64,000 nucleotides of DNA from a virus. The notes beneath the pieces were generated by a model. That model worked only from the letters and a program-made list of their open reading frames with translations, was not told the DNA's origin and searched no databases. The stretch is from positions 1 through 64,000 of the IMG/VR virus record IMGVR_UViG_3300025141_011586. One strand, 5' to 3'. Below are positions 19,300 to 37,086 of this stretch, piece after piece. A program made the translations under genes and the position numbers. Position 1 is the first letter of the stretch; each line of letters starts with the position of its first letter.

Positions 19300-19663
19300 T
19301 CTAATAACTGAAGCCAAGAAGGATAAGAAGACCAAGGCTCAAAAATCGAGAGTTAAGGTTTATGACACCATAAAAGATGCTCTCAATAAAAGTTATATGG
19401 GTCAGGTATTTTCAACCAAGAAAGCGGGAAGGCTTTATGTTACTACCCATAAGAAGTGGGGAAAAGATAAGGCATCACAAGTAGGGTCAAAGATTGCTAA
19501 GGGATTCACCCCTGGATCGGCCACGCCTGGGGCTTCTTGGCCTGAGGTAAAGGGATATGCTGTGCGTACTATGGCTAGGCATGGTGGGCAAAAGACTAAG
19601 AAATTTACTGGTGGTAAATACTGGAAGAGTAGAAAAAAGGGTAAGAAACATGCTGCTAAATGA
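19286..19663 (+). CDS. Small basic protein, possible internal head / DNA-binding protein
   Basis: 125 aa, very Lys-rich after a short MELFDLITE leader. Confidence 0.6.
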   Translation: MELFDLITEAKKDKKTKAQKSRVKVYDTIKDALNKSYMGQVFSTKKAGRLYVTTHKKWGKDKASQVGSKIAKGFTPGSATPGASWPEVKGYAVRTMARHGGQKTKKFTGGKYWKSRKKGKKHAAK

Positions 19664-20810
19664 TATTCGTATTTTAGAGAACATAGAAATTCTTTCTGAG
19701 TCTACATCTCCTCAAGGGATGAAGATTAGAGGCGTATTCCAAAGAGCGGATGAAGCCAATAACAACAAGAGAATTTATCCTAAGGCTATCCTTGAGACGC
19801 AAGTTAAAGCTCTTCAGCCTATGATTAAGGAGAACCGCCTCTGTGGTGAGTTGGATCATCCTAGTCATGACATAGTTAAGCTTTCTAATGCTTCCCATCT
19901 TGTAACAGGATTGTACATGAAGGGTGGTGATGTAATTGGTGAGGCTAGAATCTTGGGCACTCCAGCAGGTAAGGTAGCTCAAGCCCTTATTGAAGGTGGC
20001 GTTAAGATTGGAATTTCAAGCAGAGGCGTTGGAACTCTGTCAGAAGATACCATGCAAAAGGTAAAGTTTGTTAACGATGACTACAAGATGGTTACCTTTG
20101 ATCTTGTAGCAGATCCTTCTACTCGTGGCGCATACCCTGATCTTTACGAGTCCAAGCAAAGTGCCCTGGAGACTCGCAAGTTTGTTGACGATGCCTATAA
20201 GAAGGCGTTAGGGGAGCAAGTCTTTGTTACTATGTTGAAGGACAAGCTTGGTTCTCTTAACGAGGTTTATTCGGCCAAGGATTATAGATCTCCTACTCCT
20301 CCTGCTAGACAGAAGAGTAACACGGTTAACCCAGACTATGATTCTGTTATGAAGGCCAGAGGCTATCCTAGCGTTGATGATATTATGAAGAGGGGTTCTA
20401 ATGATGATCCATCTCACAAGTGGTTTAAGGCTATGATGACAGCAGTAAAGGGGCAACCCACTGTGCAAGAAGGTAAAAAGAAGAAAAAGGTTAAGAAGGC
20501 AAAGGTTTATTACGAGGGTGTTAGCTCCGAGGATATCAAAGCTGAGGTTGCCAGGAGATTAGGCGGAGATCTGACCCTTGAGGATATTAAGGCTGAGGTT
20601 GCTAGAAGGCTAAGAGAAGCTAAAAAGGTTGTCCCTTTTGGCATGACCGCTCTCTTCAACGGCGGTAACGGGGGTGGCGAGGAGGCTGCGCCTAAGCCCG
20701 AGTCTAAGCCTAAGCCCGAGTCTAAGCCTAAGCCCGAGAAGCAGTTGCCGAAGAAGCGAAGGCCGACATCGAAGCCGCCAATAATTGTCGCTAAACAACC
20801 GAAAGGCTAA
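19650..20810 (+). CDS. gp21: Prohead core protease (T4 gp21-like) with long C-terminal extension
   Basis: NNNKRIYP, GELDHP, SH, GTPAG, GISSRGVG, TFDLVADPST motifs. Start moved to the ATG at 19650. Confidence 0.92.
   Translation: MLLNDIRILENIEILSESTSPQGMKIRGVFQRADEANNNKRIYPKAILETQVKALQPMIKENRLCGELDHPSHDIVKLSNASHLVTGLYMKGGDVIGEARILGTPAGKVAQALIEGGVKIGISSRGVGTLSEDTMQKVKFVNDDYKMVTFDLVADPSTRGAYPDLYESKQSALETRKFVDDAYKKALGEQVFVTMLKDKLGSLNEVYSAKDYRSPTPPARQKSNTVNPDYDSVMKARGYPSVDDIMKRGSNDDPSHKWFKAMMTAVKGQPTVQEGKKKKKVKKAKVYYEGVSSEDIKAEVARRLGGDLTLEDIKAEVARRLREAKKVVPFGMTALFNGGNGGGEEAAPKPESKPKPESKPKPEKQLPKKRRPTSKPPIIVAKQPKG
20691..20738 (+). repeat. 18-nt tandem repeat (PKPESK) in the protease tail
   Basis: CCTAAGCCCGAGTCTAAG twice plus a partial third copy. 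Confidence 0.9.
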
Positions 20811-21525: not shown

Positions 21526-23193
21526 ATGGATAGTTTAGGTGGTTCAAATAGTTTAGTCCAAAAGTGGGAACCAATTCTAGAAGGCATCGACAACGATTAT
21601 ACTCGTCGTGTAACGGCGCAGCTTCTTGAGAATCAGGCCAAGCAAATTGTGTCTGAAAAACTCCAGGAGAGTGGCGGTGTTACAACGGGTTCAACAACTG
21701 TCGGTCATTTGGGAACCTTCCAGAAGTTCGCTTTCCCGCTTGTTCGTAGGGTTTACCCTGAGTTGGTTGCCAACAATATTGTTGGTGTTCAGCCCATGCA
21801 AGGCCCAGTTAGCCAGATCTTTTATCTTGGTAATAGTAGGTTCCATAACACAACCCAACAGGTTGTGTACAGCAAGTATAAGCTGACCTACCGTGGTCTC
21901 AACAACGAAGCTATTGGTTCTAGGTCAGACATTGCCGAACAAACTGTTGCTGGTGGGTTTGATCCTGATCAAGGTTGGGGTACTGGCCAGTTCGCGGGTG
22001 CCGCTGGCGCGGGTTCTGGTATGGATCTTGATGGTACGCTTTCAAGGCTTAGTACTTCTGGTGTCGTGTCCGCTAACGCTGGTGGACCTAGCTCGACGTT
22101 TGGTGGCAAGATCGCTTCTTGGCCTCATACCAATACGACGATGGGTTGGACGGTTTCTGGTGGTGAGCAACTGAACCTTACTGGTATTCCAGAAATTCAG
22201 TTCCACATCCAGCAACAGGCAGTTGTGGCTAACACTCGCAAGATGAGAGCCCTGTGGACGATTGAAGCTTCTCAGGACCTCAAGGCTTATCATAACCTTG
22301 ATCTTGAGCGTGAGCTGACCGATCTTCTTAGTAAGGAACTTTCCTTGGAGATTGACCGCGAGATCCTTGAAGATCTTCGCATGATTGCTTACGGTTTCAA
22401 TGGTGCTAATACCTTGGGTAACTGGAAAGCTGAGTCTCTGGATAACGGGAATCCTAACGCTTTCGGAAACACAAAGGGTGTTTTCCAGGGAGTTAATGAG
22501 ACTGGGACGGGCGGTACGCCTGATTTCACTCCGAGTGCCTTCACCTACGAACAAGCAGATGAGCTTAAAGAGCTTCAAACTGCTATTGATTCGAATGTGT
22601 TCCTCGTGGACTTTACTGCAACAACGGGTGCGAATGCTGGCTTGGCTGATTTCAATCCTCGTCACATCGGTGAGTTGTATGGTAACCTGCTGGCAACAAT
22701 GAACATTGCCTCACAGGATATCTACAGAACAACTCATAGAGGTCCTGGTACTGTGATGATCACCTCACCTCTGATGGCTAGCTTCCTAGAAAGCTCTGCC
22801 AAGCTAGAGGGAGGAATTGCTCCAGCGGATGCCCCAACTAACATGGGCACCAAGGTGCAGTACAAGGGCAAGTTCGCTGGCAAGTATGACCTGTATGTTG
22901 ACCCCCTGTGGCCTGAGGACGAAATCCTTTTGGGTTACAAGGGCTCGAATGCTATGGACGCAGGCTTTGTCTACGCTCCGTACATTCCGCTACAGCAACT
23001 GCCTACTATCACGGATCCTGATAACTTCCAACCCAGGAAGGGTATCCTGACTCGTTATGGCAAGGCTGCTATCACTCCTGCTCATAGATTCTATAGAATC
23101 ATTAGAGTGGTTGGTCCTAATGCTAACTGGCTGCTCTCGCCATTCGCTAGAGTCCAGAAGATCGGTACAACCACGGTAACTGGTTATAAGTAA
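21526..23193 (+). CDS. gp23: Major capsid protein (T4 gp23-like)
   Basis: KWEPILEG, LLENQ, PLVRR, GVQPMQGP, RKMRALWT.E..QDLKAYH, EIDREI, YAPYIPL, FQPRKGILTRYG. Confidence 0.97.
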   Translation: MDSLGGSNSLVQKWEPILEGIDNDYTRRVTAQLLENQAKQIVSEKLQESGGVTTGSTTVGHLGTFQKFAFPLVRRVYPELVANNIVGVQPMQGPVSQIFYLGNSRFHNTTQQVVYSKYKLTYRGLNNEAIGSRSDIAEQTVAGGFDPDQGWGTGQFAGAAGAGSGMDLDGTLSRLSTSGVVSANAGGPSSTFGGKIASWPHTNTTMGWTVSGGEQLNLTGIPEIQFHIQQQAVVANTRKMRALWTIEASQDLKAYHNLDLERELTDLLSKELSLEIDREILEDLRMIAYGFNGANTLGNWKAESLDNGNPNAFGNTKGVFQGVNETGTGGTPDFTPSAFTYEQADELKELQTAIDSNVFLVDFTATTGANAGLADFNPRHIGELYGNLLATMNIASQDIYRTTHRGPGTVMITSPLMASFLESSAKLEGGIAPADAPTNMGTKVQYKGKFAGKYDLYVDPLWPEDEILLGYKGSNAMDAGFVYAPYIPLQQLPTITDPDNFQPRKGILTRYGKAAITPAHRFYRIIRVVGPNANWLLSPFARVQKIGTTTVTGYK

Positions 23194-25963: not shown

Positions 25964-28156
25964 ATGCCAACTTACGTAAGTCCAGGTGTATATGTTATTG
26001 AAAAGGACATATCACAATATCCCCCAACTATTAACTCTTCTGTTGTAGGGTTGGTGGGTTTCGCCTCTAAGGGTCCTGTGAATAAAGCGACCTTAATTAC
26101 TAGTCCAAATAGATTAATAGATACGTTTGGTGAGCCATCTGAGACCATAAGAGGGCAGGGTCTTGAAGGTGCATTGGAGATATTGGAGACCACAAATAGC
26201 CTTTACTATGTAAGAGCAGCTAGTACTGATGCTGCTGATGCTTCTGCTAGTATACAATTCGGTAGTTGTCCTGCGGTTTTGGTGTCTGGGCCAAACTCCG
26301 ATGACAACGGTCTCGGTGTCACTGGGGGAGCAGCCGCGACTATTTACGCTCAGGTGTATAATAATAATGGCGTTAAGCAATACGACTATCCTAAAAAGTT
26401 TAACATTAAAAATAATTTTACTGCCAATGCTGATGCCTCAAGTCAGGGTAAGGCATTGGCGAAAGTATTCGGTGGGTCTTTACAAACAGGAAATCTAGGT
26501 GTTCATTGGGATAAGGAGAGTGCTGCGTCTGGATATATAGTTAGTAGATTCGCTGGGTCTGGTGCGTATATGGAGCTATCTGCGTTTGTCCATGAAGATA
26601 ATAACTCTAATAAGGGTATGGAAATATTCCAAGCAGTTAACGCCCCATCTGGAACTGTATCAGGCGAAGGCATTGGGGGCACTGCATCGCACAATAATTT
26701 TGCGAGTGCAATTAAAGTGTATGGAGGCTCAATATACACAGGAGAAACCACTTCCGGTTTCGGATACCTTGTTGAGTCTCTGAATCCTGGAGCTGGCTAC
26801 AACGCTGGGAAGAAGCCTAACGGGGAGACTAGTGGAACTAGTATTACTGTTACTAACCAGAACGGTCCTTATTTTTCTCTCAATGTCAATGACAGGGGTC
26901 AGCCAGTTGAAACTTTCAAATGCTCTCTGACAAAAAATAAGGATTTTGTTGAGGATGTAATCAATGTTGGTCAGGATAATCCTAAGTCTGATTACATTAA
27001 GGGAAACCTCTTTGCTTCAGGTCTTCTGACAATAACCCCTAACGCACTACACTCTTTCGGTCAACCCCTCACTGAGATAGCTCATGGGTGGGATGGAGTT
27101 AGTATGCGGTGGCAGACATCTGGTGGGACTGCGCTCACCAATGTCGGGGACGATGCTGCTATCGGCAAGAAGCACCCCGCTAGGCCTAAGTTTGTGAAGG
27201 CAATTGAAGGGACTTATAATTTATCTGGTGGCAATAACGGCCAGTCTGCAAGCGATAATACTAATGACACTAACTTGATCGGTACTACATCAGGGGGTGC
27301 AAAGACTGGTATGCAGGCCCTGGATGATGAGGTTCTTAATATCTCAATAGCTGCTGTCCCTGGGTATACTAGGCAGGCTGTTCAGAATGCCTTGATCAGC
27401 CTAGCAGAAACCACACAGGATTTCCTCGCTGTGGTAGCTCCTCCCTACGCTGTTGGCGGTGCTCAAGACGCAATCGATTGGTCTAATGGGCAGGGTGGAG
27501 GCAGAACCGCTGCTATAACAAGTAACTATGCTGCGATCTATTGGCCATGGTTGAAGGTATTCAGCGTCCATGATGGCAAGGATCGTTGGTATGATCCAGC
27601 AATATTCGCTATAAGGCAAATGGTTTACACCGATAATGTTGGTGAGCCATGGTTCGCTGCTGCTGGCTACAATCGTGGTAGATTAACCAAGCCTGTTGAT
27701 GTGGAAGTTATAGTAAATCAAGGTGACAGAGACTCCATGTACAGTGGTGGAAATGTTATTAACCCAATTGCTAACTTCCCGCAACAAGGAATTACAATAT
27801 TCGGGCAGAGAACTGCACAAAGAACTGCAACCGCTCTTGATAGAGTAAACATTCGCAGGCTGATGATCTTCATCAGGAAAGTTCTTCTGCAAGCAGGCAG
27901 GCCTTTTGTCTTCGAGCCAAATGATGAGTTCACTTGGCAACAAGTTGAAGAAACCTTGAATCCGTTCTTGGATGATATCAAGAGGAGAAGAGGTCTTGTT
28001 GAATTCCGTGTCGTATGTGACGATACAGTAAATACTCCAGTTAGAGTTGATAGGAACGAGCTTTGGTGCAAGGTTCTCCTCAAGCCAACGAAGACTGCTG
28101 AGATCATAATCTTTGAGCTTAACCTGACGAATCAGTCCGCGCAATTAGGAGGATAA
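25964..28156 (+). CDS. gp18: Tail sheath protein (gp18-like)
   Basis: YVSPGVYVIEKD, GFASKGP, YWPW, PWFAAAGYNRG, FGQRT, DRVNIRRL, FEPND. Confidence 0.97.
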   Translation: MPTYVSPGVYVIEKDISQYPPTINSSVVGLVGFASKGPVNKATLITSPNRLIDTFGEPSETIRGQGLEGALEILETTNSLYYVRAASTDAADASASIQFGSCPAVLVSGPNSDDNGLGVTGGAAATIYAQVYNNNGVKQYDYPKKFNIKNNFTANADASSQGKALAKVFGGSLQTGNLGVHWDKESAASGYIVSRFAGSGAYMELSAFVHEDNNSNKGMEIFQAVNAPSGTVSGEGIGGTASHNNFASAIKVYGGSIYTGETTSGFGYLVESLNPGAGYNAGKKPNGETSGTSITVTNQNGPYFSLNVNDRGQPVETFKCSLTKNKDFVEDVINVGQDNPKSDYIKGNLFASGLLTITPNALHSFGQPLTEIAHGWDGVSMRWQTSGGTALTNVGDDAAIGKKHPARPKFVKAIEGTYNLSGGNNGQSASDNTNDTNLIGTTSGGAKTGMQALDDEVLNISIAAVPGYTRQAVQNALISLAETTQDFLAVVAPPYAVGGAQDAIDWSNGQGGGRTAAITSNYAAIYWPWLKVFSVHDGKDRWYDPAIFAIRQMVYTDNVGEPWFAAAGYNRGRLTKPVDVEVIVNQGDRDSMYSGGNVINPIANFPQQGITIFGQRTAQRTATALDRVNIRRLMIFIRKVLLQAGRPFVFEPNDEFTWQQVEETLNPFLDDIKRRRGLVEFRVVCDDTVNTPVRVDRNELWCKVLLKPTKTAEIIIFELNLTNQSAQLGG

Positions 28157-28808: not shown

Positions 28809-31397
28809 ATGCAATATTATCAGGAACTCCTTGAAAGCTTTGATAAGTTAAAGAAGAGGAAGTTCAAGCTTACGATAATGGAGCAAGGGGGCAATGCAGA
28901 AGCTCAGGCTCAAGCTGCGCTGGAGGCGGCGAAGGGTGGCACCCATGATACCCCTGTTGAAATAGGAGCAACCAAGAATGGCAGTCCCATCAGAGGGTAT
29001 GTATCATCGGAGGGAGCTGTGTTGGTTGTGGCTCCCTGGCCAAGAGGCGGAGTAAGGCAGAAGAGGGTAATTGATGCGCCTCCGCCAAATGGGACTGGCC
29101 AAGTAATACCTGACGTGTGGAAAGAGTTTTTAACATTTTTTTCAGGTGATGAAGAGGCTGCTCCTGTTGAGGGTGAGGAGCAGGAGGTCTTTGGTGGAGG
29201 GGCTGCTCCAGGGGATACGATTAGGACTATGTTAGAGTCTGGGAGCCAGAAAATAAGGGATAGGCTTGGTGACTGGTTCCTAGGTATGAATAGATTATCT
29301 GGAAATCTGTTCGATAAGTTAGGGCCTCATAAAGATATTCTAGGGACTATCCCTGGAGGTAGTGCAGAGGGATTTGCAGGGTCCTTTACTGGGGCTGCGG
29401 GGAGATCAGTAGAAAGGCAGCTTGTCAATAGTAAGAGAGTTGTTCGAGATGAGGAGGGCAGGTTATCAAGGCTAGGTGCAATGGACCCAGTAGATCTAGC
29501 GGTTGGAGCTAGTAGGCTTCATAACTTATTATCCAAAGCTAGCTTAGATAAGATATCCGAGTCGGAGGCTCTGGAGTTGAGATCCAATATGGCTTTTAAC
29601 GAAGATGGGTCTGTCTTCCTGAGAACGGGAGGTCCTAATGAGGGCTTGCTGTTCAAAGACAATGGGAGAGCTATAACAGCCGCTATGAGGGTGGCAGAAG
29701 ACAGGGGTAATTTTAAATTTGACGTGCTCCCCTTGAAGGCGGCGACCGCAGGCATATCTTCCTGGAGAGGCAAGAATTTAGAAAGGGTTTCAACTATTCG
29801 AATGCTTGCCAAGAAATGTATTGGTGCTAGAGAGATGGGGATGGAGGTTGAGCACCCCCCTCAACCCGTAGCGTGTGCAGCTCTTCAGAGAGAGGTGGGA
29901 GAGTTTGTAGGGGAAGCTCACAAGTGGAGAGAAGCTCATCAATGGGCCAGAGGTTTTGAGTTAGGTGATTCTGCAATTAGAGCAGAGGACCAAGAGATTC
30001 TTAGATCCATACAGAGCACTGGCATCCAAGGAGAGGGCATAGCTGATATGGTCAGAGGTATCTTCCAGTTGTCCAAGGAGAGTGATGATTTGTTGGATGC
30101 GGATATGATAGTTCCAGTCGGAGCAATCACTGGAGGGGGGAGAAGGGCAGATGTTAATGCTATCTGGGTAGACGATGAAAAGTGTGGCAAGGCGAGAGAT
30201 GGTTTGTTGCGGAAGGGGTTCTCTGAGGAGGACATCGATAATAATCAAATGATACGGAGAATGAGTGCTAAAGAGGCCTTTGAGAATAGCACCGCTCTCA
30301 GGGATGATTTCCTAGCGGTCGAAGGACTGCGTGATGCAAACTCAAAGGTGTGCGTTCACGGAACAGGACTGAAGCACTACGAGCATGGGCTTGGGAATCC
30401 AAAAATTGGAGAACTTGAATTTAATAAGGTAGATGAAGTTCTTGGGGGGGCTATAGATGCGAGTGAACCTCATTGGGCAGAGATGCGAGAACACACCTAT
30501 AGTGAATTGGGTATGGACGAGGTAGCGCAACAGGCAATGTTAGGTGTGCATAAATCGATAAAGGATATTGATGATAGAGTTAGAGATTTGCCTGCGAATG
30601 CGACAGTTTCCGATGAGGAGGGAGGCATCTTAACTACTAATCATAACGCCTTACAGAATTTTGCGAAACGTACGTTAGATGATATTTTAGATAACACCAC
30701 TGTCGGTGAGTTGTTCCCTAAAGGTACCAACGAAGATGATAGTAGGTCTGAGTTATATAGCCAATTAAATACCCTGATGGGAAAGCAAGGCGGGGAAACT
30801 ACATTAGATACTCCCGAAGGTGAAGAGAGAGCACGAGAGCTTATCTCTAGATTCCTAAGACAGCGATATACTATGAAACGAGTAGCGCAGGAGAACGATG
30901 GAGAGAGAAGCGGGGGAGCTGCGACTGATTATCTGGCGGTTAACACTTTCCTAACAGGTGGATCAATTAATAATGGGGACAGTGGGGATTTTAGATCCAT
31001 CGCTGATGGTGAATTGAAATACTTTAGGCATAATGAGGTTCTGGAGGTGGTTAAGGCATTCAGGAACGGGAGGAGCTATAGGGGCATGACAGTCTCTATA
31101 CCTAACACAAACTCATTTACAACGAAGCTTGTTCTTGATGGGAATAAAGATACTTATGTTAGCTTTGGTGCTGAGGGTCAGTCTAGTGAAACGGTAGACG
31201 GAGGCTTCTCTAGGAATACTAGATTCGTTACTCATGCATCTGGAGGTCTATTGAATGAGATTGCAACGCCTAAATCAAGGTCAGCAAGTGTTCCTGAAGA
31301 GGTTAATGCTGATGCTCATGATCCAATAAACAATGTTATTGAAGAGTATCTAGAGAATCAAAGAGATATTCTATATAAGATTCTCGAAGCTAGGTAA
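28809..31397 (+). CDS. Large hypothetical protein
   Basis: 862 aa ORF, Gly/Glu/Ala-rich, no motif recognised. Confidence 0.6.
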   Translation: MQYYQELLESFDKLKKRKFKLTIMEQGGNAEAQAQAALEAAKGGTHDTPVEIGATKNGSPIRGYVSSEGAVLVVAPWPRGGVRQKRVIDAPPPNGTGQVIPDVWKEFLTFFSGDEEAAPVEGEEQEVFGGGAAPGDTIRTMLESGSQKIRDRLGDWFLGMNRLSGNLFDKLGPHKDILGTIPGGSAEGFAGSFTGAAGRSVERQLVNSKRVVRDEEGRLSRLGAMDPVDLAVGASRLHNLLSKASLDKISESEALELRSNMAFNEDGSVFLRTGGPNEGLLFKDNGRAITAAMRVAEDRGNFKFDVLPLKAATAGISSWRGKNLERVSTIRMLAKKCIGAREMGMEVEHPPQPVACAALQREVGEFVGEAHKWREAHQWARGFELGDSAIRAEDQEILRSIQSTGIQGEGIADMVRGIFQLSKESDDLLDADMIVPVGAITGGGRRADVNAIWVDDEKCGKARDGLLRKGFSEEDIDNNQMIRRMSAKEAFENSTALRDDFLAVEGLRDANSKVCVHGTGLKHYEHGLGNPKIGELEFNKVDEVLGGAIDASEPHWAEMREHTYSELGMDEVAQQAMLGVHKSIKDIDDRVRDLPANATVSDEEGGILTTNHNALQNFAKRTLDDILDNTTVGELFPKGTNEDDSRSELYSQLNTLMGKQGGETTLDTPEGEERARELISRFLRQRYTMKRVAQENDGERSGGAATDYLAVNTFLTGGSINNGDSGDFRSIADGELKYFRHNEVLEVVKAFRNGRSYRGMTVSIPNTNSFTTKLVLDGNKDTYVSFGAEGQSSETVDGGFSRNTRFVTHASGGLLNEIATPKSRSASVPEEVNADAHDPINNVIEEYLENQRDILYKILEAR

Positions 31398-31923
31398 ACC
31401 AGAAATCATTATCTAAGTCTAGCAAGTCTTTAAATTTATATATTATATATTTATTAAAGATTAGATGTTTATATTCTTTATTTGAATATAGAGTTATATC
31501 ATCAACAAGTTGATTATTTAATATTGCTAATATCTCATTTCTATCTTGTTGCCATATAATAATAGATGGGACTCCTGCTCTCTGTGAATCTTTTTCACAT
31601 TGTTTTATAAAAGTGTAGAATGCAGACCGATCATTGAACAGGCTGCTCAGGTTCTCTTTGTTGTAACCCTTTTTACACTCGACGATAAACCTAAAGTTTT
31701 TGGGAGTTACTAGATCACCATGAATCTTTAAATATTCAGGGAGAGCATGTGTTGTAGCAAAGGCTCCACTCCCAGGAGTACGGCAGAATTCCTTGGTTTC
31801 AAACCTACTGTTGAGAAATTTACAAATTTTTCTTTCGAAGGATTGCCCTTTAGCCCTGCTGTTGACCCTCTTCTTAGGCTTTAAAGCCTCTAGATCACAA
31901 TTGTCTTTTATTTTTTTCGACAT
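31390..31923 (-). CDS. Holliday junction resolvase-like PD-(D/E)xK nuclease
   Basis: NSRAKGQSFER...RTPGSGA...GDLV...VECK motif; start moved to MSKKIKD (CAT at 31921-31923). Confidence 0.8.
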   Translation of the reverse strand: MSKKIKDNCDLEALKPKKRVNSRAKGQSFERKICKFLNSRFETKEFCRTPGSGAFATTHALPEYLKIHGDLVTPKNFRFIVECKKGYNKENLSSLFNDRSAFYTFIKQCEKDSQRAGVPSIIIWQQDRNEILAILNNQLVDDITLYSNKEYKHLIFNKYIIYKFKDLLDLDNDFWFT

Positions 31924-31939
31924 CAATCTATTATAGCCT
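31924..31939. promoter_or_regulatory. Bidirectional -10 element CTATTATAG between divergent start codons
   Basis: Plus: TATTAT-agcct-ATG(31940). Minus: TATAAT-agattg-ATG(31923). 16-nt gap. Confidence 0.65.
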
Positions 31940-32227
31940 ATGCCAGAGACTGTTAAATTAAATATTGACGGATGGAAAATTCGTCTTGACGAAAGAAGTA
32001 GAGGTCGCATGAAATTTCAAATAAAGTTAAATAAGGAAGAGACAGAAGCTTTCAAAGCTTTTACTGACACTGTAAAGCCTGAGGAGGTTCCTCTTGACGA
32101 TTTTGTGAAGAGTATATTTTTAACAGGCATTGAATCCATGAACAAGAAGTTAGTGGAGATGGTCCAGAAATATGCCGAAGAGCATAAGGACGAGTTTAAT
32201 CCCTCTGGAATAGAAATTGTAGAGTAA
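31940..32227 (+). CDS. Hypothetical protein, possibly ribbon-helix-helix-like
   Basis: 95 aa; MKFQIKLNKEETEAFK strand-helix-helix pattern. Confidence 0.6.
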   Translation: MPETVKLNIDGWKIRLDERSRGRMKFQIKLNKEETEAFKAFTDTVKPEEVPLDDFVKSIFLTGIESMNKKLVEMVQKYAEEHKDEFNPSGIEIVE

Positions 32228-32535
32228 TGGACGAAAATATTATTTTCTTGGACAAGGAGAACCAGATCAATAAGGTCACCCGCGATCAAAAAAAGTCTGG
32301 GGAGAAAGTTAGGATCTTGTTCACATCTATGTGGGACGAGTGGTCATCTAATCTTGTGGAGAAGCTAAAGGGCTATAGAAAACAGGCAAAGTTATATGTG
32401 ATTAATAGCTTTACAATGCCCCATTCTTTTGTTATATTCAAAACAAAGAGAGTGCCCTATCTCATCACATTAAACGGAGATAGAGTGTATAAGGAAGGAT
32501 ATCTACCAAACATTTATAAAGAACTTGGGTGCTGA
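32227..32535 (+). CDS. Thioredoxin-fold protein lacking the CxxC motif
   Basis: ILFTSMWDEWS aligns by eye with VDFWAEWCGPC; KRVPYLITLNG aligns with the cis-Pro RGIPTLLLFKNG segment. Confidence 0.6.
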   Translation: MDENIIFLDKENQINKVTRDQKKSGEKVRILFTSMWDEWSSNLVEKLKGYRKQAKLYVINSFTMPHSFVIFKTKRVPYLITLNGDRVYKEGYLPNIYKELGC

Positions 32536-32867
32536 CCAGTAACCTTCTCGATATAGTTTGATATCTTTTCATTGTATTTTTTGTTTTTTGTGTAGAGAAG
32601 TTTCAGGTTGTTTAGTATAATGGTCGTGAAGAAGTTGAAAGCCTTGCCCTTCTGAGGGTTGAAGTTCTTCAGCGTCTTAAGTATCAAAACAAAACACTCC
32701 TGTTTAGCATCATCCTTATCGACATTGAAGCCGAAAGAGTCTATAATATTGGAAATGAGTTTATCGAACATGCTCATCAGCTCCTCCTCATTGGTTTTCT
32801 TATCCTTGAGGTAAGCTTTGATCAGTTTTTCAAATCTTTTATTATCTACATAATGCTTCTTAACCAT
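32514..32867 (-). CDS. gp55: Late-transcription sigma factor (T4 gp55-like)
   Basis: HYVDNK N-terminus and NFNPQKGKAFNFFTTII region; start moved to MVKKHY (CAT at 32865-32867), 117 aa. Confidence 0.8.
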   Translation of the reverse strand: MVKKHYVDNKRFEKLIKAYLKDKKTNEEELMSMFDKLISNIIDSFGFNVDKDDAKQECFVLILKTLKNFNPQKGKAFNFFTTIILNNLKLLYTKNKKYNEKISNYIEKVTGQHPSSL

Positions 32868-32881
32868 ACCATATAATAGTA
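32868..32881. promoter_or_regulatory. Bidirectional -10 element between sigma factor and polymerase part 1
   Basis: Plus: TATAAT-agta-ATG(32882). Minus: TATTAT-atggt-ATG(32867). 14-nt gap. Confidence 0.65.
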
Positions 32882-33889
32882 ATGTTTGAACTAGAAAGAC
32901 TTTACAGTGGATCCAGCACAACAACCTCCTGTGAAGGTTGCTCTATTCTTAAGAATTCTAGCAAGCCTTTTCACGCTCATATGGATCATGAAGACCTACC
33001 TGCTTCAGATGTTCTCTTCCTCTCCGACTCCTATAAGTGGAACGGATATGAAAAGACAGCGTTCAAAAAGGAAGAGATAGCTCTGTTCCAGGGTGGGCTG
33101 TCAGGATACTCAGGGTTTACATGGACCACATCTCCATCAGTAAAGTGCCCCGCAGTTAAGGAGGCAGATATGTCCCCCTCTAACATGAAGATTTGCAGGG
33201 AGTATCTAACAGATACAATACGCCACGTAAACCCTAGGCTAATCTTTGTTTGTGGCAACCTTGCAATGAAGATGCTAATCAAGAAGAGTGGCATCAGCTC
33301 CAAGCGAGGTAGGTGCTTCATGTATGAGGGCATACCAGTGGTCCCCTTGTTCCACCCACAAACTGTTATCAATGAACCTCGTCATAAGTTCTTATTTGAT
33401 ACGGACATAAAGAATTCAATCGATAAGTATATCCTTAACAAGGAGGTATCACACAGCTTTGATTACAAGGTTATCATGTCTTATGAGGACTTGAATGAGT
33501 TTTGTTCCGAGTTAATAGACACCTCTGAGACAATTGCCTGTGACATTGAGACCACAGGGCTGGACTTCCTGAGGGATAAGATGATGACTATAGCCTTCAG
33601 TCTTAAGGATAAGGGGTGGGTTCTGCCTATTGATCACAAGGAAGTGGAGTGGGAAGATAGTATGAAGGAGAGTATTCTTAGGGCTGTCTCTGAGATCCTA
33701 TCCAACAAGAGGAACAAGAAGGTATTTCACAATGCTAAGTTTGATCTTAAGTTCTTGAAGCAGTATGGTATAAAGGTGGAGAATGTATGGGATACAAAAT
33801 TGATGCATCATCTCATCGATGAGAACACTCCAAAGAGTTTGATGGAGCTAGTGAAGATCTACTTTCCTAAGGAGTTGGAGAGCTTTTAA
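32882..33889 (+). CDS. polA: DNA polymerase family A part 1: UDG family 4-like domain plus N-terminal part of 3'-5' exonuclease (ExoI, ExoII)
   Basis: CEGC, VKCP, CREYL...NPRLIFVCG, FHP (UDG4-like); DIETTGLD (ExoI), HNAKFD (ExoII), DTKLM. Stops before ExoIII. Confidence 0.88.
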   Translation: MFELERLYSGSSTTTSCEGCSILKNSSKPFHAHMDHEDLPASDVLFLSDSYKWNGYEKTAFKKEEIALFQGGLSGYSGFTWTTSPSVKCPAVKEADMSPSNMKICREYLTDTIRHVNPRLIFVCGNLAMKMLIKKSGISSKRGRCFMYEGIPVVPLFHPQTVINEPRHKFLFDTDIKNSIDKYILNKEVSHSFDYKVIMSYEDLNEFCSELIDTSETIACDIETTGLDFLRDKMMTIAFSLKDKGWVLPIDHKEVEWEDSMKESILRAVSEILSNKRNKKVFHNAKFDLKFLKQYGIKVENVWDTKLMHHLIDENTPKSLMELVKIYFPKELESF

Positions 33890-34178
33890 TCCTCAAGACT
33901 CTCACACCCTCACCTGGAGCAGCCTCGCCCGTTTTTGGATCGACTTTGGAAAAACCTGACCAGGGTTGAGCCCCAACCCAAGGCTTTTCAGGATCCATGG
34001 CACGTTCTGTGTGGCGTAATCGCGCAGCCTTAGCTCTGGCCTTCTTCCCAGGCCTCCCTTTGGATGCGGTTGATGCCTTCCCAATATAGCCACTAGAAGA
34101 TGTACGATGTCCTGGGCCACCTCCAGCGGTGATCTCTTTTAGCAGCAGTTCAGTTATTCTCCCGTAAACTTTATTCAT
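33867..34178 (-). CDS. Small basic protein, antisense within the polymerase locus
   Basis: 103 aa; ATGA-coupled to the upstream minus-strand ORF; MNKVYGRITELLLKE leader. Confidence 0.65.
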   Translation of the reverse strand: MNKVYGRITELLLKEITAGGGPGHRTSSSGYIGKASTASKGRPGKKARAKAARLRHTERAMDPEKPWVGAQPWSGFSKVDPKTGEAAPGEGVRVLRIKSSPTP

Positions 34179-34561
34179 TTTTGTCTCGGATGCTCACCAG
34201 CGTCCCACTGTTGTTTAGTTTTCGCCGCTCTCGCTGCTTTCTCGGCCTTCTTCGCTGCTGCCGCCTTCTCTGCTGCCGTCTTCTCTGCTGCCGCCTTCTC
34301 TGCCGCCGCCGCTGCTGCCCTAGCTTTCCCCCCAGGAATTATTCGGGACAATATCCTTTTCCCACGCTCTATTGCTGGATCGAGATTAATGGTAAGCTCA
34401 TATAACACTTCTGCCATTCTTTCATAATTTTTATTCATTTTTACTTCCTTTATCCCGTGCTTTGCTTTAACCTGCATCACACAACGTTCATGCTTCGAGT
34501 CCTTTTTGGGACCTGTGGCTTTATGGCACACAGCCCAGGGATTTACTTTTCTTTTAGCCAT
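34175..34561 (-). CDS. Small basic Ala-rich protein, antisense within the polymerase locus
   Basis: 128 aa; NPWAVC...ERC N-terminal module, internal MNKNYERMAEVLYE, AAEK repeats; purine-rich leader. Confidence 0.7.
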   Translation of the reverse strand: MAKRKVNPWAVCHKATGPKKDSKHERCVMQVKAKHGIKEVKMNKNYERMAEVLYELTINLDPAIERGKRILSRIIPGGKARAAAAAAEKAAAEKTAAEKAAAAKKAEKAARAAKTKQQWDAGEHPRQK

Positions 34562-34577
34562 ACAACTTCTCTTTCCC

Positions 34578-34589
34578 TATTATATACTC
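34578..34589. promoter_or_regulatory. Bidirectional element: leaderless -10 for polymerase part 2 (+) and late-type GTATATAA for the antisense pair (-)
   Basis: Plus: TATTAT-atactc-ATG(34590). Minus: GTATATAA (34587-34580), identical to the 8-mer at 23264. Confidence 0.6.
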
Positions 34590-35069
34590 ATGCTCACTGT
34601 CAACAATCCTAAAAATTTCGACTGGAGTAGTATGTCCTTACATGATTGTGCTAAGGGCAACGCTCTGGATGCTTATTTCACTCTGAAGCTCTTCCATATA
34701 TGCGAGGAGAAGCTACAGGAGTATGGGATGCTAGGATTATACGAAAATCTTATGGCTCCTGCGACAGAGGCATTTAAGGATATGGAGTATGCAGGGTTAG
34801 ATGTGTCTCAAGAAAAGTTGAAGACGGTAGGGAAGGAGTTGTTTGAAAAGAATGTAGATCAAGCTGATTCTCTTTATGCTTTCAAGCAGGTAAATAAGGA
34901 GGACAACCTGTCCTCTAATAACCATTTGATTGAGGTGCTGTATACCAGAGAGGGGGGGTTTAATCTTTATCCCCCTGACAAGACTGCAAAGGGATCTCCC
35001 TCCGTGTCTGCCCCCACGTTGAAGCTATTATTAGAACAAATTGAGAACGAGTTGAGGACCAGGGAATGA
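34590..35069 (+). CDS. polA: DNA polymerase family A part 2: ExoIII helix plus thumb
   Basis: FDWSSM...GNALDAYFTLKL (ExoIII), MEYAGLDV, NLSSNNHLIEVLY, KTAKGSPSVS thumb motifs. Start at MLTVNN, 159 aa. Confidence 0.85.
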   Translation: MLTVNNPKNFDWSSMSLHDCAKGNALDAYFTLKLFHICEEKLQEYGMLGLYENLMAPATEAFKDMEYAGLDVSQEKLKTVGKELFEKNVDQADSLYAFKQVNKEDNLSSNNHLIEVLYTREGGFNLYPPDKTAKGSPSVSAPTLKLLLEQIENELRTRE

Positions 35070-36151
35070 CCAAGTGGAGACACAGAGATGAGAGTAAGAA
35101 GATAAGTAAGTGGAGAGTTTCCGAACTTACTACACCCGCCCTCAAGAGTGCTAGAAATTTTGTGAAACAATTACTCGACCTTCGCAAATCTGAGAAGCTA
35201 TACAAGACGTACATACAGGGGGTCAGGAAGGCCGCTAAATTTAACGGGTGCGACAAGATCTATGTGGACTACAAGCTCGATGGCACCATCACAGGGAGGC
35301 TCTCATGCACAGCCTACACTGCTCAGGAGAGTAAGGGAGTTTCCTTTCACACTTTACCTAGAGAGACAGAGAATAATATCCGTAGCATCTTTGTAGCACC
35401 TGATGGATACAAGTTTATAACCGTGGATTACAGTGCGATGGAACTGCGTGTCCTAGCTCATGTTGCAAAAGAATATAACATGCAGAAAGCTTTCATCGAG
35501 GGGCGAGATCTCCATAGTTATACTGGGAGCCTACTCTTTAACAAGAAAGAGGGGGATGTCACAAAAGAGGAGAGACAGATAGCTAAGACAGTTTCTTTCC
35601 TTATCGTCTATGGGGGAGGAGCTTTTAACCTCGCTGAGACTATGGGCATTCGACTGAAGAGGGCTGAGAAGATCATCGAGGCATACAAGAATGTCTACCC
35701 AGGGATCTTTAAGTATATGGAGTTCATTGAGGCCTTTATCAAGAAGAACGGTTACGCTTATTCAATATTCGGTCGGAGAAGGAATCTCCCTGACGTTGCC
35801 TCTAGGAATCGTACCGTAGCCAACAAGGCTATAAGACAGGGGATTAATTTCACAATCCAAAGCACTGCTTCGGACGTTCTGGTCTGTTCGCTTCTAGGTA
35901 TTGTTGAGAAGTTTAAGCAGAAGGGTATGAAGGCTAGGATTGTTAGTACGGTTCACGATAGTATTGAAGCTATTGCCCCTGCCGATGAGGTAGACGAAGC
36001 TTGTCGTATCATCTATGATGAGATGGTGAACTATCCGTATATTAAAAAGACTTTTGGTATTGATTTTTCTGTCCCGCTAGACATAGAGATTCTAGTGGGA
36101 GAATCTTTCGGAGATGGGGAGGAGATAAAAGTATGCAACGTAGAGCCTTAG
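35066..36151 (+). CDS. polA: DNA polymerase family A part 3: palm and fingers
   Basis: TGRLS, DYSAMELR (motif A), RQIAKTVSFLIVYG (motif B), GRRR, NFTIQSTASD, VHDS (motif C); ATGA overlap with part 2 and GAGGA SD. Confidence 0.93.
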   Translation: MTKWRHRDESKKISKWRVSELTTPALKSARNFVKQLLDLRKSEKLYKTYIQGVRKAAKFNGCDKIYVDYKLDGTITGRLSCTAYTAQESKGVSFHTLPRETENNIRSIFVAPDGYKFITVDYSAMELRVLAHVAKEYNMQKAFIEGRDLHSYTGSLLFNKKEGDVTKEERQIAKTVSFLIVYGGGAFNLAETMGIRLKRAEKIIEAYKNVYPGIFKYMEFIEAFIKKNGYAYSIFGRRRNLPDVASRNRTVANKAIRQGINFTIQSTASDVLVCSLLGIVEKFKQKGMKARIVSTVHDSIEAIAPADEVDEACRIIYDEMVNYPYIKKTFGIDFSVPLDIEILVGESFGDGEEIKVCNVEP

Positions 36152-37086
36152 TAACAGGGGGATGTGGATTCATAGGAGCCCACTTAACCGAGAGACTGCT
36201 TAAAGAGGGGTGGAAAGTAGAAGTAGTAGATAATTTCCGCGAGGGCGATCCCGACAAGCCTCTTCCTGAAGGCGTTAAAGGCGCTATTCTCTGGCCTATG
36301 GATTTTACTGATTCAGTCATACTAGATTCTATAAGGGATAAAAAGTATGATATGGTTTTTCACTTAGCTGCAATCCCTAGAGTGGCCTACTCAGTAGAGA
36401 ATCCAGTGGAGACTACAGATAATAATATTCTAAAGACGGTGAAGTTATTTCACGCTTGTATAGGAAATGTTAAGAAAGTAATATTCTCATCATCATCATC
36501 TGTATATGGCGGTATTTTTGATGGGACAACAGTAATTAAACCTGTCCAGGAGTATATGGCTAGACATCCCAAATCTCCTTACGCTTGGCAGAAAGCAGCA
36601 ATAGAAGATGCTGCTGGCATATTCTCTGACCTGTATGAATTAGATATTATTTGCCTTAGATACTTCAACGTCTTCGGCCCAGGACAAGTTGCCGAGTCAG
36701 CATACTCTACAGTGGTATGTTCCTGGTGTGACGCAATTAAGAATGGTAAGCCTCTCAGGCTGGACGGCAATGGTTATCAGTCCAGAGACTTTTGCTACAT
36801 AGATAACGTGGTAGACGCTAATATTCTAGCGGCTGAAGGTACCGCTCGCGGAGGATGCTTTAATGTCGCTGGAGGTGAACGAATCCCCCTTATAAGGATA
36901 CTAGATTATTGTCAGCAGAAGTTCTCTGGACTAGAAGTAAAGGAAGCCCCAGACAGGAAGGGTGATGTTAGACATACTCTAGCTAGCCTGGAGAAATCTA
37001 AAATGTTTTTGAACTACGAACCGAAGGTACTTTTTTGGGAGGGTCTGGCTAAGACGTTTGATTGGTGGGGTTTAGAGCCTAAATGA
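36133..37086 (+). CDS. NAD-dependent nucleotide-sugar epimerase/dehydratase (extended SDR)
   Basis: TGGCGFIG, HLAA, SSSSVYG, YAWQK, LRYFNVFGP, RDF. Confidence 0.93.
   Translation: MQRRALVTGGCGFIGAHLTERLLKEGWKVEVVDNFREGDPDKPLPEGVKGAILWPMDFTDSVILDSIRDKKYDMVFHLAAIPRVAYSVENPVETTDNNILKTVKLFHACIGNVKKVIFSSSSSVYGGIFDGTTVIKPVQEYMARHPKSPYAWQKAAIEDAAGIFSDLYELDIICLRYFNVFGPGQVAESAYSTVVCSWCDAIKNGKPLRLDGNGYQSRDFCYIDNVVDANILAAEGTARGGCFNVAGGERIPLIRILDYCQQKFSGLEVKEAPDRKGDVRHTLASLEKSKMFLNYEPKVLFWEGLAKTFDWWGLEPK

What the first reader, a model, noticed from the sequence alone, without database searches (positions are those of the whole stretch)
32882..36151. Three-piece family A DNA polymerase with its proofreading site split across genes 700 bp apart
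Seen: part 1 (32882-33889) has a UDG-like domain, ExoI (DIET, 33542) and ExoII (HNAKFD) and stops at YFPKELESF. Part 2 (34590-35069) resumes LTVNNPKNFDW with ExoIII (NALD, Asp at 34668) and the thumb. Part 3 (35066-36151) has palm and fingers. The parts are collinear, seem to lose no domain, retain the catalytic acids, and each has its own initiation signal (two leaderless -10 boxes, one SD with ATGA coupling). The 700-nt gap holds two antisense genes, with no intein termini or homing endonuclease. The part 3 frame has a stop at 35042 and no slippery heptamer follows, arguing against frameshifting. Established: family A polymerases are normally single chains and the DEDD site needs ExoI, II and III together. 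Inference: a heterotrimeric polymerase assembled non-covalently, whose proofreading could be tuned by separate expression of part 1. This is the best candidate for an undescribed system in the window.
Basis: partly seen in the sequence, partly recalled or inferred. Interest (0 to 1): 0.9.

Follow-up and report, generated by a model that had tools for sequence, protein, structure and literature searches.

The report
Three-gene split phage DNA polymerase
This uncultured marine phage, like many of its relatives, encodes its only DNA-copying enzyme as three separate genes cut through the proofreading domain and the thumb, and the first cut has become a landing site for unrelated extra genes.

Summary
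Three collinear ORFs (32882-33889, 34590-35069, 35066-36151) together make one UDG-like/3'-5' exonuclease/family A polymerase. ExoI and ExoII lie in part 1, the ExoIII Asp in part 2, and motifs A, B and C in part 3.

The layout is neither an assembly error nor window-specific.
- All 80 related viral loci that hold parts 1 and 2 have the same first breakpoint. 42 have no insert (41 with a TAATG-type stop-start overlap) and 38 have inserts of 151-2287 nt.
- In 76 of 78 loci, part 3 starts inside the end of part 2, in either the -1 or the +1 frame.
- All three parts are under strong purifying selection (median dN/dS 0.05-0.11).
- Four relatives that are 99-100% complete have no other A, B or C-family polymerase.
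- Contigs from other marine runs bridge both edges of the gap. One near-identical strain lacks the insert but keeps the split.

More distant relatives have a two-piece form with the same first cut. Fused forms lie outside that clade.

The best reading is a conserved three-subunit polymerase. Split family A polymerases are already published, but with cuts at other positions, so this is a new variant of a known kind. Tunable proofreading has no support. Earlier agents of this scan reported the same architecture on other DNA.

The parts
32872..32877 (+). TATAAT element 4 nt before the part 1 ATG (candidate promoter, unverified)
   Evidence: Read. A TAT[ATC][AT]TA[GT] element ends 0-9 nt before the part 1 ATG in 50 of 53 distinct relatives. 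It also occurs before 173 of 803 other long + strand ORFs, so it is common in these genomes.
32882..33889 (+). Part 1 (335 aa): family-4 UDG-like domain plus the first two thirds of the 3'-5' exonuclease domain (ExoI D221/E223 at 33542-33550, ExoII D288 at 33743-33745)
   Evidence: Pfam UDG 1.4e-08. DNA_pol_A_exo1 1.6e-20 over profile positions 2-129 of 173. Median dN/dS is 0.112.
33867..34178 (-). Antisense gap ORF B (103 aa, basic, starts MNKVYGRITE). Its 3' end overlaps the end of part 1 by 23 nt and its ATG overlaps the stop of ORF A (ATGA).
   Evidence: No Pfam or PHROG hit. The same kind of basic antisense protein sits at this junction in relatives.
34175..34561 (-). Antisense gap ORF A (128 aa from ATG 34561; 87 aa from the internal ATG 34438, which begins MNKNYERMAE and has AAGGAAG upstream)
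   Evidence: No Pfam or PHROG hit.
34578..34583 (+). TATTAT -10-like hexamer 6 nt before the part 2 ATG (candidate restart promoter, unverified)
   Evidence: TAGCCA-17-TATTAT. The related element [AT]TAT[AG]TA[GC] lies 2-3 nt before the part 2 ATG in 23 of 30 distinct insert-bearing relatives and in 0 of 28 without an insert.
34590..35069 (+). Part 2 (159 aa): last third of the exonuclease domain (ExoIII GNAxD, Asp at 34668-34670) plus the first part of the polymerase domain up to the thumb
   Evidence: Klenow chain 160-294, E 3e-11; phrog_17 positions 809-927. Median dN/dS is 0.059.
35066..35069 (+). ATGA stop-start overlap of parts 2 and 3, with GAGGA 9 nt upstream
35066..36151 (+). Part 3 (361 aa): rest of the thumb, palm and fingers (motif A D121 at 35426-35428, motif B R170/K174/F178/Y182, motif C H297/D298 at 35954-35959)
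   Evidence: DNA_pol_A positions 58-380, 1.9e-80; invariant residues; Klenow chain 302-584. Median dN/dS is 0.054.

Best explanation
**What it is.** This is a conserved, functional three-subunit family A DNA polymerase of an uncultured marine myovirus that has a T4-like head protease and late sigma factor. An ancestral single-chain UDG-like/exonuclease/polymerase gene was cut twice. The first cut lies between ExoII and ExoIII. The second, later cut lies in the thumb.

**How it most likely works (inferred).**
- The three products are made separately and reassemble without covalent bonds.
- Part 2 is the bridging piece. Its N-terminal ExoIII segment completes the exonuclease fold and active site of part 1. 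Its C-terminal segment completes the thumb of part 3.
- Parts 2 and 3 are translationally coupled through an ATGA overlap behind an internal GAGGA.

**The gap.**
- In relatives without an insert, parts 1 and 2 are coupled in the same way (TAATG).
- In this window a strain-variable 700-nt cassette of two antisense genes sits exactly at that boundary.
- Part 2 is therefore probably re-expressed from the conserved AT-rich element just upstream of its ATG (inferred).

**Shown:** the anatomy, conservation of the breakpoints, collinearity, selection, uniqueness of the polymerase, and the insert polymorphism.
**Inferred:** assembly, activity and the expression signals.
For: **Completeness of the enzyme.**
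- The three parts are collinear against Klenow and PHROG 17.
- The catalytic residues of all six motifs are invariant across homologues.

**Breakpoint 1.**
- It is identical (..ELExL stop / MLT[IV]) in 80 of 80 related loci that hold both parts.
- 41 loci have a 1-nt stop-start overlap, 1 has a 7-nt overlap, and 38 have inserts of 151-2287 nt.

**Breakpoint 2.**
- Part 3 starts with ATG or GTG inside the end of part 2 in 76 of 78 loci. The overlaps are 8 nt (50 loci), 4 nt (18), 17 nt (5), 26 nt (2) and 11 nt (1).
- Both -1 and +1 frame relations occur, so no single frameshift mechanism fits.

**Selection.** Median dN/dS is 0.112 for part 1 (61 pairs), 0.059 for part 2 (33 pairs) and 0.054 for part 3 (31 pairs), using pairs with dS of 0.1-1.5.

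**Breadth of the family.**
- A part 2 profile found 2557 proteins among 1.84 billion cluster representatives.
- The best 92 are all stand-alone proteins of 113-181 aa.

**No other polymerase.**
- Four relatives estimated 99-100% complete (111-131 kb) have exactly one PolA match, the split one, and one exonuclease match.
- They have no PolB or PolC-alpha match.

**Assembly.**
- Contigs of other marine runs bridge part 1 into the gap (X4 33833-34150; X5 33859-34244) and the gap into part 2 (X4 34496-35154; X5 34442-34675).
- A 3258-nt contig of run X7, 95-99% alike, lacks 33890-34568 but keeps both genes separate.

**History of the cuts.**
- More distant syntenic relatives (L092, L093) have part 1 plus a fused part 2+3 that starts at the same MLT[IV].
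- On a quick tree of the polymerase core, all split forms make one clade (SH-aLRT 100) apart from 9 fused forms.
Against: - No protein, activity or transcript data exist for any member.
- The complex-modelling job gave no verdict.
- Part 2 folds poorly on its own (pLDDT 60). That fits dependence on partners but proves nothing.
- The residue aligned to the Klenow ExoIII tyrosine is an invariant Gly, so full proofreading activity is not assured.
- One relative (L021) has a frameshifted part 2 in tblastn.
- In one distant relative (L093) the two genes are in the same frame with a single TAA between them, so read-through to a single chain is conceivable there.
- The window's own record is only 43% complete, so a second polymerase in this particular genome is excluded only by analogy with complete relatives.
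- Both trees are quick searches with SH-aLRT support only.
Confidence: 0.8

Rival explanations
1. Recoding: ribosomes join the pieces by programmed frameshifting, hopping or stop read-through, so that a single-chain polymerase is the real product.
For: - At the insert-free junction the stop is overlapped by the next start (TAATG). In a few loci the last Leu codon of part 1 equals the Leu codon after the ATG (for example CTT..CTT in L005 and CTG..CTG in L012).
- In L093 the two genes are in frame with one TAA between them.
Against: - 38 of 80 loci, including this window, have 151-2287 nt with other genes between parts 1 and 2.
- The Leu codons do not match in most loci. Examples are CTC/CTG, CTA/CTG, CTC/TTA and TTC/CTT.
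- At junction 2 both -1 and +1 frame relations occur, and a start codon is always present.
- No conserved slippery site is visible.
Confidence: 0.04
2. The pieces no longer form one enzyme. Parts 2+3 act as an exonuclease-deficient polymerase, with part 2 as a structural stub. Part 1 has drifted to a separate role, for example a UDG-like DNA-binding or processivity factor.
For: - The ExoIII tyrosine position is Gly.
- Motif A of the UDG domain (GEAPG, seen in the fused relative P0131) is replaced in part 1.
- Antisense inserts uncouple part 1 from part 2 in many genomes.
Against: - The ExoI, ExoII and ExoIII acids are all invariant even though they lie on two chains.
- The exonuclease half of part 1 has a dN/dS of 0.117.
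- Parts 1 and 2 stay adjacent in 80 of 80 loci, and 41 have overlapping stop and start codons.
Confidence: 0.1
3. A decaying or broken polymerase gene (pseudogene), or an assembly or sequencing artefact.
For: - The window is a metagenomic record that is 43% complete.
- One relative (L021) shows an extra frameshift in part 2.
Against: - The same breakpoints occur in 80 loci from many samples.
- dN/dS is 0.05-0.11 and the catalytic residues are invariant.
- Contigs from other runs bridge both edges of the gap.
- Complete relatives have no other polymerase.
Confidence: 0.02
4. The gap is an intron or intein (including a split intein) that is removed at the RNA or protein level.
For: - Phage polymerase genes often carry group I introns or inteins.
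- Two fused relatives (P0115, P0124) are 1129-1208 aa long and carry a large insert in the polymerase domain.
Against: - No Rfam family matches 32500-36500 at E<=1 apart from a chance lncRNA hit.
- 42 of 80 relatives have no insert at all, yet are still split by a stop and a frame change.
- Part 1 ends and part 2 begins in polymerase-homologous sequence. At most about 3 Klenow positions are unaccounted for, which leaves no room for intein halves.
- The gap ORFs are antisense and have no Pfam hit.
Confidence: 0.01

Closest known systems
Split exo|pol family A polymerase of S-SBP1-like and S-TIP37-like (clade B) T7-like cyanophages (Czernecki et al. 2023, PMC10201439, passages read; PMC12695635, passages read)
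   Same: - A natural gene fission of a phage PolA into adjacent genes.
- It is argued to be neither a frameshift nor decay.
- The pieces are expected to reassemble non-covalently.
   Different: - That enzyme is cut once, at the boundary between the exonuclease and polymerase domains, in a T7-like podovirus polymerase.
- Here there are two cuts. One is inside the exonuclease domain, between ExoII and ExoIII, so the DEDD site is shared by two chains. The other is inside the thumb.
- Here the enzyme is a UDG-PolA of a myovirus, and the first junction carries variable cargo.
Split DNA polymerase of OM43 phages MEP401 and MEP402 (PMC10580990, passages read; record OP830906 read)
   Same: - A PolA in two genes with a small ORF of unknown function between them.
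- The layout is conserved in related metagenomic genomes.
   Different: - Tested here: the MEP401 cut lies at Pfam DNA_pol_A profile positions 132/154 (gp13 covers 48-132 and gp15 covers 154-380).
- The window's cuts lie at DNA_pol_A_exo1 position about 129 and DNA_pol_A position about 57/58.
- MEP401 is a small Zobellviridae podovirus, and its exonuclease domain is intact in one chain.
UDG-PolA enzymes (N4-like cluster 17, SPO1, SP-10; PMC10201439)
   Same: - An N-terminal family-4 UDG-like domain precedes the exonuclease and polymerase domains.
- The nearest deposited phage polymerases are of this single-chain type, for example Bacillus phages Nachito, YungSlug and SP-10, at 31-36% identity.
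   Different: - Those are single chains of about 800-900 aa.
- Here the same domain order is spread over three genes.
Genes in pieces of T4-related phages: split gp43 (PolB) and the nrdA of Aeromonas phage Aeh1 split by the mobE homing endonuclease. These are recalled.
   Same: - An essential replication gene of a T4-like phage is cut into separately translated, reassembling pieces.
- Foreign DNA sits at the cut.
   Different: - The polymerase family is different (B rather than A).
- No homing endonuclease was found here. It was absent from 2 of 2 window gap ORFs and from 10 of 10 sampled ORFs from relatives' junctions.
Separate exonuclease and polymerase chains of phiKZ-like phages (PMC3201878, passage read)
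   Same: The proofreading and polymerase functions lie on separate polypeptides of a large phage.
   Different: - That is a family B enzyme.
- It is split between domains, not through an active site.

Membership tests
Family A DNA polymerase (Pfam PF00476 plus PF01612) | Polymerase motifs A (D..E), B (R..K..F/Y..YG) and C (HD.E) | tested here: met
   Part 3 matches PF00476 at 1.9e-80. D121, E126, R170, K174, F178, Y182, G183, H297, D298 and E301 are invariant in 16 sequences.
Family A DNA polymerase (Pfam PF00476 plus PF01612) | DEDD 3'-5' exonuclease motifs ExoI, ExoII and ExoIII | tested here: met
   ExoI D221/E223 and ExoII D288 are in part 1. The ExoIII D27 is in part 2 and aligns to the Klenow ExoIII Asp. 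The usual Tyr is replaced by an invariant Gly.
Family A DNA polymerase (Pfam PF00476 plus PF01612) | A single polypeptide chain (the usual state) | tested here: not met
   There are three ORFs, with stops and frame changes at both junctions in the window and in about 80 relatives.
UDG-PolA | A family-4 UDG-like domain N-terminal to the exonuclease domain | tested here: met
   Pfam UDG at 1.4e-08 on part 1 residues 88-168. PDB 1ui0 (uracil-DNA glycosylase) at 5.6e-06. C17, C20, C89 and C105 are at least 90% conserved.
UDG-PolA | An active UDG site (GEAPG-type motif A) | tested here: inconclusive
   Part 1 has LFLSDS where the fused relative P0131 has FVGEAPG. The H-P of motif B is kept. No structural or activity test was possible.
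Split exo|pol PolA of T7-like cyanophages | One cut at the boundary between the exonuclease and polymerase domains | tested here: not met
   Cut 1 lies at PF01612 profile position about 129 of 173, inside the exonuclease domain. Cut 2 lies at PF00476 position about 57. The published position is taken from passages of PMC10201439. The cyanophage records themselves were not fetched.
Intein or split-intein fractured gene | Intein N- and C-terminal splicing blocks at the ends of the pieces | tested here: not met
   Parts 1 and 2 have no Pfam hit other than UDG, exonuclease and RNase_H_2. The piece ends abut in the Klenow alignment (chain position about 149 and about 152).
Group I or II intron | A structured self-splicing RNA in the gap, with exons that join in frame | tested here: not met
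   No Rfam match. Insert-free relatives are still split and out of frame.
Programmed ribosomal frameshift | A conserved slippery site and one fixed frame relation | tested here: not met
   Junction 2 uses the -1 frame (ATGA) in some loci and the +1 frame (GTGNNTAA) in others, always with a start codon. The codons before junction 1 vary.
Homing-endonuclease-made genes in pieces | A homing endonuclease gene in the gap | tested here: not met
   The window's two gap ORFs and 10 sampled junction ORFs of relatives have no endonuclease hit in Pfam or PHROGs. The only hits are a GT2 glycosyltransferase and a dNMP kinase.

The most novel reading that the evidence does not exclude
The internal boundaries of an essential, split polymerase operon may have become a dedicated cargo site.

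- Antisense cassettes settle exactly at the ExoII/ExoIII cut. They encode basic proteins whose N-termini resemble the T4 internal-protein capsid-targeting sequence.
- The cassettes bring a near-symmetric AT-rich element that restarts expression of parts 2 and 3.
- Near-identical strains with and without the cassette would then make the proofreading piece (part 1) and the polymerase pieces in different ratios, and would differ in replication fidelity.
Probability: 0.1. Interest if true: 0.8.

Novelty: new variant of a known kind. Interest (0 to 1): 0.6.

Why it matters
**A natural fragment-complementation experiment.** A DEDD proofreading site shared between two polypeptides, and a thumb built from two chains, show where a family A polymerase tolerates cuts. 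That is useful for split-polymerase engineering and for understanding how the exonuclease and polymerase domains communicate.

**Annotation and ecology.** The family is large. The best 92 hits, all stand-alone part 2 proteins, are representatives of separate 50%-identity clusters, and there are 80 viral loci here. Annotation pipelines and polA-based virioplankton surveys that expect one long gene will miss or mis-size these enzymes.

**Genome evolution.** The variable cargo at the first cut, polymorphic even between near-identical strains, is a clear example of a gene fission site becoming a hot spot of genome plasticity.

Tried and rejected
**Intron.** Rfam search of 32500-36500 at E<=1 gave only a chance lncRNA hit (18 bits against a gathering score of 40).

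**Close cultured relative.** blastn of the locus against deposited phages found nothing. tblastn of the three parts gave at best 31-36% identity, all to single-chain polymerases.

**Complex modelling.** The job used part 1 residues 190-335, part 3 and part 2, with part 2 as the partner. The verdict was 'no answer': score 0.91, but a control scored 0.79. It is not used as evidence either way.

**Fold of part 2 alone.** Mean pLDDT was 60 and pTM 0.26. That is too poor for a fold search, so none was run.

**RNA evidence.** One metatranscriptome run (X20) gave only a 151-nt contig on part 1 and a 60-nt low-complexity piece in the gap. This shows nothing about expression. Parts of the stretch without cover in X4, X5 and X7 are not interpreted.

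**Homing endonuclease in the gaps.** None was found.

**Hop between matching Leu codons at TAATG.** The codons match in only a few loci, so this was rejected.

**Promoter and terminator scan.**
- 10 promoter-like sites against 6.3 +/- 2.3 expected.
- 4 terminator-like sites against 3.6 expected.
- The scan is only suggestive.

**Literature.**
- Searches for a three-piece or ExoII/ExoIII-split PolA found no paper that describes it.
- PMC3620275, PMC6302109 (no occurrence of 'split') and PMC11348598 were read in passages and do not bear on it.
- Supplementary files were not opened. Those of PMC10201439 and PMC10580990 may list further split PolAs.

**P0109.** The search for its locus in viral contigs found only an unrelated 21% match.

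**Trees.** The careful tree search did not finish, so the quick tree was used. One search was also run as a quick tree.

Full report
**What is there.**

The window is part of a 73-kb IMG/VR virus record that CheckV rates 43% complete. Nearly all of its genes are on the + strand.

PHROG matches identify a myovirus with T4-like features:
- a head maturation protease (19557-20807, 1.2e-47);
- a major head protein (21526-23190, 1.4e-78);
- a tail sheath (25964-28153, 1.9e-77);
- a late sigma factor on the minus strand (32517-32924, 7.8e-05).

- **Part 1** (32882-33889, 335 aa) hits Pfam UDG and DNA_pol_A_exo1. The exonuclease match covers only profile positions 2-129 of 173.
- **Part 2** (ATG 34590 to 35069, 159 aa) has no Pfam hit on its own.
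- **Part 3** (35066-36151, 361 aa) matches DNA_pol_A profile positions 58-380 of 381.

**The parts are pieces of one enzyme.**

PHROG family 17 (DNA polymerase) places them at profile positions 482-785, 809-927 and 931-1236.

Against the Klenow fragment the mapping is as follows.
- Part 1 residues 194-314 align to chain positions 6-128.
- A 25-sequence profile of part 2 aligns positions 9-147 to chain 160-294 at E 3e-11.
- A 16-sequence profile of part 3 aligns positions 34-321 to chain 302-584.

Extrapolating to the ends of the pieces, cut 1 falls near Klenow chain position 150. That is between ExoII and ExoIII.

Cut 2 falls near chain 294-302. About 40 extra residues are shared between the end of part 2 and the start of part 3 there. 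From memory this is the thumb tip, where other PolAs carry insertions. PMC10201439 describes such thumb-tip insertions.

The invariant part 2 Asp27 (34668) lies on the Klenow ExoIII Asp. The aligned Tyr position is an invariant Gly, giving GNAxD.

The following catalytic residues are invariant in the alignments:
- ExoI D221 and E223;
- ExoII D288;
- motif A D121 and E126;
- motif B R170, K174, F178 and Y182;
- motif C H297, D298 and E301.

**It is a clade-wide architecture.**

Two scans of IMG/VR gave 90 loci at 48-68% identity. Some contigs were found twice.

Cut 1:
- Among the 80 loci that hold parts 1 and 2, every one ends part 1 at the same place (..ELExL, then a stop) and starts part 2 with MLT[IV].
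- 41 loci overlap stop and start by one base (TAATG, TGATG or TAGTG).
- One locus overlaps by 7 nt.
- 38 loci carry an insert of 151-2287 nt exactly there.

Cut 2:
- In 76 of 78 loci, part 3 starts with ATG or GTG inside the end of part 2. The overlaps are 8 nt (50 loci), 4 nt (18), 17 nt (5), 26 nt (2) and 11 nt (1).
- One locus has a 21-nt spacer. This is L021, whose part 2 also looks frameshifted.
- One locus (L091) has a 537-nt insert that encodes a dNMP kinase (phrog_139, 1.3e-25).
- The 4-nt overlap puts part 3 in the -1 frame and the 8-nt overlap puts it in the +1 frame. No single frameshift mechanism fits both. Separate, coupled initiation behind the conserved GAGGAG/GAGGA does.

**The pieces are under selection and are the only polymerase.**

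Nei-Gojobori dN/dS was computed on pairs with dS of 0.1-1.5. Most pairs are saturated.

| Part | Median dN/dS | Usable pairs | All pairs |
|---|---|---|---|
| 1 | 0.112 | 61 | 2346 |
| 2 | 0.059 | 33 | 1596 |
| 3 | 0.054 | 31 | 1596 |

Four relatives rated 99-100% complete (111-131 kb) each have one PolA match and one exonuclease match, at the split locus. They have no PolB and no PolC-alpha match. The window's own record also has only this one.

**History of the cuts.**

A part 2 profile was searched against 1.84 billion cluster representatives and found 2557 proteins at E<=1e-3.
- The best 92 are all stand-alone proteins of 113-181 aa.
- Next come proteins of 480-563 aa in which the part 2 match sits at residue 1. 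The six that I read all begin MLT[VI]/MLSI and run on through the polymerase motifs. They are parts 2+3 fused but still cut from part 1.
- After those come fully fused proteins of about 680-870 aa, with the match near residues 240-490.

Two of the two-piece forms were recovered with their neighbours. L092 and L093 are syntenic with the window. Their gene order is a RusA-like gene, the late sigma factor, part 1, the fused part 2+3, and (in L093) an SbcD-like gene.

In L093 the two genes are in frame, separated only by TAA-AAC-ATG. This hints that the first cut may have begun as a nonsense mutation rescued by reinitiation.

A quick tree of the polymerase core (40 rows) shows three things.
- All split forms fall in one clade (SH-aLRT 100), apart from the 9 fused forms.
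- Two-piece forms are basal within that clade.
- The three-piece forms make a clade (98) that also holds the two-piece P0093. That placement may be a re-fusion or an artefact.

If the root lies among the fused forms, cut 1 is older than cut 2.

**The gap.**

The window's 700-nt gap has 50% G+C against 44% in its flanks. It holds two antisense, translationally coupled ORFs, 34175-34561 and 33867-34178. Neither has a Pfam or PHROG hit.

Relatives carry a changing cargo at the same site:
- one to four tandem antisense basic proteins of the same kind as the window's (N-termini such as MNxY[ED]RI..LL.E);
- an antisense lipoprotein-like protein of about 166 aa;
- a sense 91-aa membrane protein;
- a sense 62-aa coiled-coil protein;
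- a GT2 glycosyltransferase.

No homing endonuclease was found in the 2 window ORFs or in 10 sampled ORFs.

On a quick tree of part 1 (67 rows), the insert state needs 23 changes over 10 states. Near-identical pairs differ in state: L075 and L084 have no insert while L078, L086 and L090 have the 91-aa gene, and L060 differs from L064.

Sense inserts keep TAATG overlaps at both ends. Antisense inserts are followed by a conserved [AT]TAT[AG]TA[GC] element 2-3 nt before the part 2 ATG. That element is present in 23 of 30 distinct insert-bearing upstream sequences and in 0 of 28 without an insert. It occurs before 28 of 803 long + strand ORFs in the same loci, a count that includes the part 2 genes themselves. 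In the window this is the TATTAT at 34578-34583. Its role as a promoter is an inference.

**Assembly.**

Contigs from other marine runs bridge both edges of the gap.
- Part 1 into the gap: X4 at 33833-34150 and X5 at 33859-34244.
- The gap into part 2: X4 at 34496-35154 and X5 at 34442-34675.

A 3258-nt contig of run X7, 95-99% alike, joins 33889 to 34569 with 25 other letters between. Those letters contain the reverse complement of an MNNVY start, which looks like a remnant of the cassette. X5 also holds a form that skips 33889-34429.

The insert is therefore real and polymorphic between close strains, while the split is constant.

**Comparison with what is known.**
- Czernecki et al. 2023 (PMC10201439; passages) report a split of the exonuclease and polymerase domains into two genes in S-SBP1-like T7-like cyanophages as the first seen in PolAs. 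They also describe single-chain UDG-PolAs.
- PMC12695635 (passages) uses the same split to define clade B cyanopodoviruses.
- MEP401-type OM43 phages have a PolA in two genes with a small ORF between them (PMC10580990; passages). I located that cut at DNA_pol_A profile positions 132/154, which is not at either of the window's cuts.
- Five literature searches found no paper on a cut between ExoII and ExoIII or on a three-gene PolA.
- Earlier agents of this scan reported the same three-gene architecture (e1-6017031, e1-5872352) and the two-piece ExoII/ExoIII cut (e1-3410896, e1-3543581) on other DNA. My results agree with them. They are not independent evidence.

**Verdict.**

The heterotrimer reading is well supported by comparative evidence, though it has no biochemical test. 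The idea of tunable proofreading has no support: the stop-start overlap in 41 of 80 loci points the other way. The finding is a new variant of a known kind, namely natural split family A polymerases. Its unusual features are an active site shared between two chains and a cut that serves as a cargo hot spot.

Noticed in passing
window 33867-34561 (minus strand): The two gap proteins start MNKVYGRITE and (from the internal ATG 34438) MNKNYERMAE. T4 ipII and ipIII, read from NC_000866, start MKTYQEFIAE, which from memory is the capsid-targeting sequence cut after I/L-x-E by the prohead protease. The window encodes such a protease (19557-20807). The gap genes may therefore be packaged internal proteins. 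A post hoc pattern hit only these two of 494 ATG-initiated readings in the window, and none in 20 shuffles.
   Followed up: partly
window 32882-33450 (part 1 N-terminal domain): The UDG-like domain keeps four Cys that are at least 90% conserved (C17, C20, C89, C105; candidate Fe-S ligands) and the H-P of motif B. It has LFLSDS where the fused relative P0131 has FVGEAPG, so it is probably a structural, inactive UDG domain.
   Followed up: partly
window 32514-32924 (minus) and 31390-32010 (minus): A late sigma factor (phrog_234) and a RusA-like resolvase (phrog_244) lie antisense just upstream of part 1. The sigma gene and part 1 diverge from one TATAAT-like element, with their start codons about 15 nt apart. 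The same layout occurs in L092 and L093.
   Followed up: partly
L091 6992-7543: A dNMP kinase gene (phrog_139, 1.3e-25) is inserted, in sense and with an ATGA overlap, at the part 2/part 3 junction. The second cut can therefore also take cargo.
   Followed up: yes
L093 4995-5003: In this distant two-piece relative, part 1 and the fused part 2+3 are in the same frame. Only TAA-AAC-ATG separates them, giving an 867-aa open frame with one stop.
   Followed up: partly
P0115 and P0124 (fused relatives, 1208 and 1129 aa): Two single-chain relatives carry a large insertion inside the polymerase domain. From its position and length it looks like an intein with an endonuclease. It was not analysed.
   Followed up: no
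L015, L016, L019, L022, L028, L030, L047, L048, L050-L054, L068 and L018 (junction 1): A conserved antisense protein of about 160-170 aa with a lipoprotein-like signal (..LSSC/TSC) and Gly/Ala-rich segments fills a 486-542-nt insert in many relatives. It has no Pfam or PHROG hit. It could be a lysis or exclusion protein.
   Followed up: partly
relatives' loci, + strand ORFs: A TAT[ATC][AT]TA[GT] element ends 0-9 nt before the first ATG of 173 of 803 long ORFs. This points to a genome-wide start-proximal promoter or initiation signal in this phage group.
   Followed up: partly
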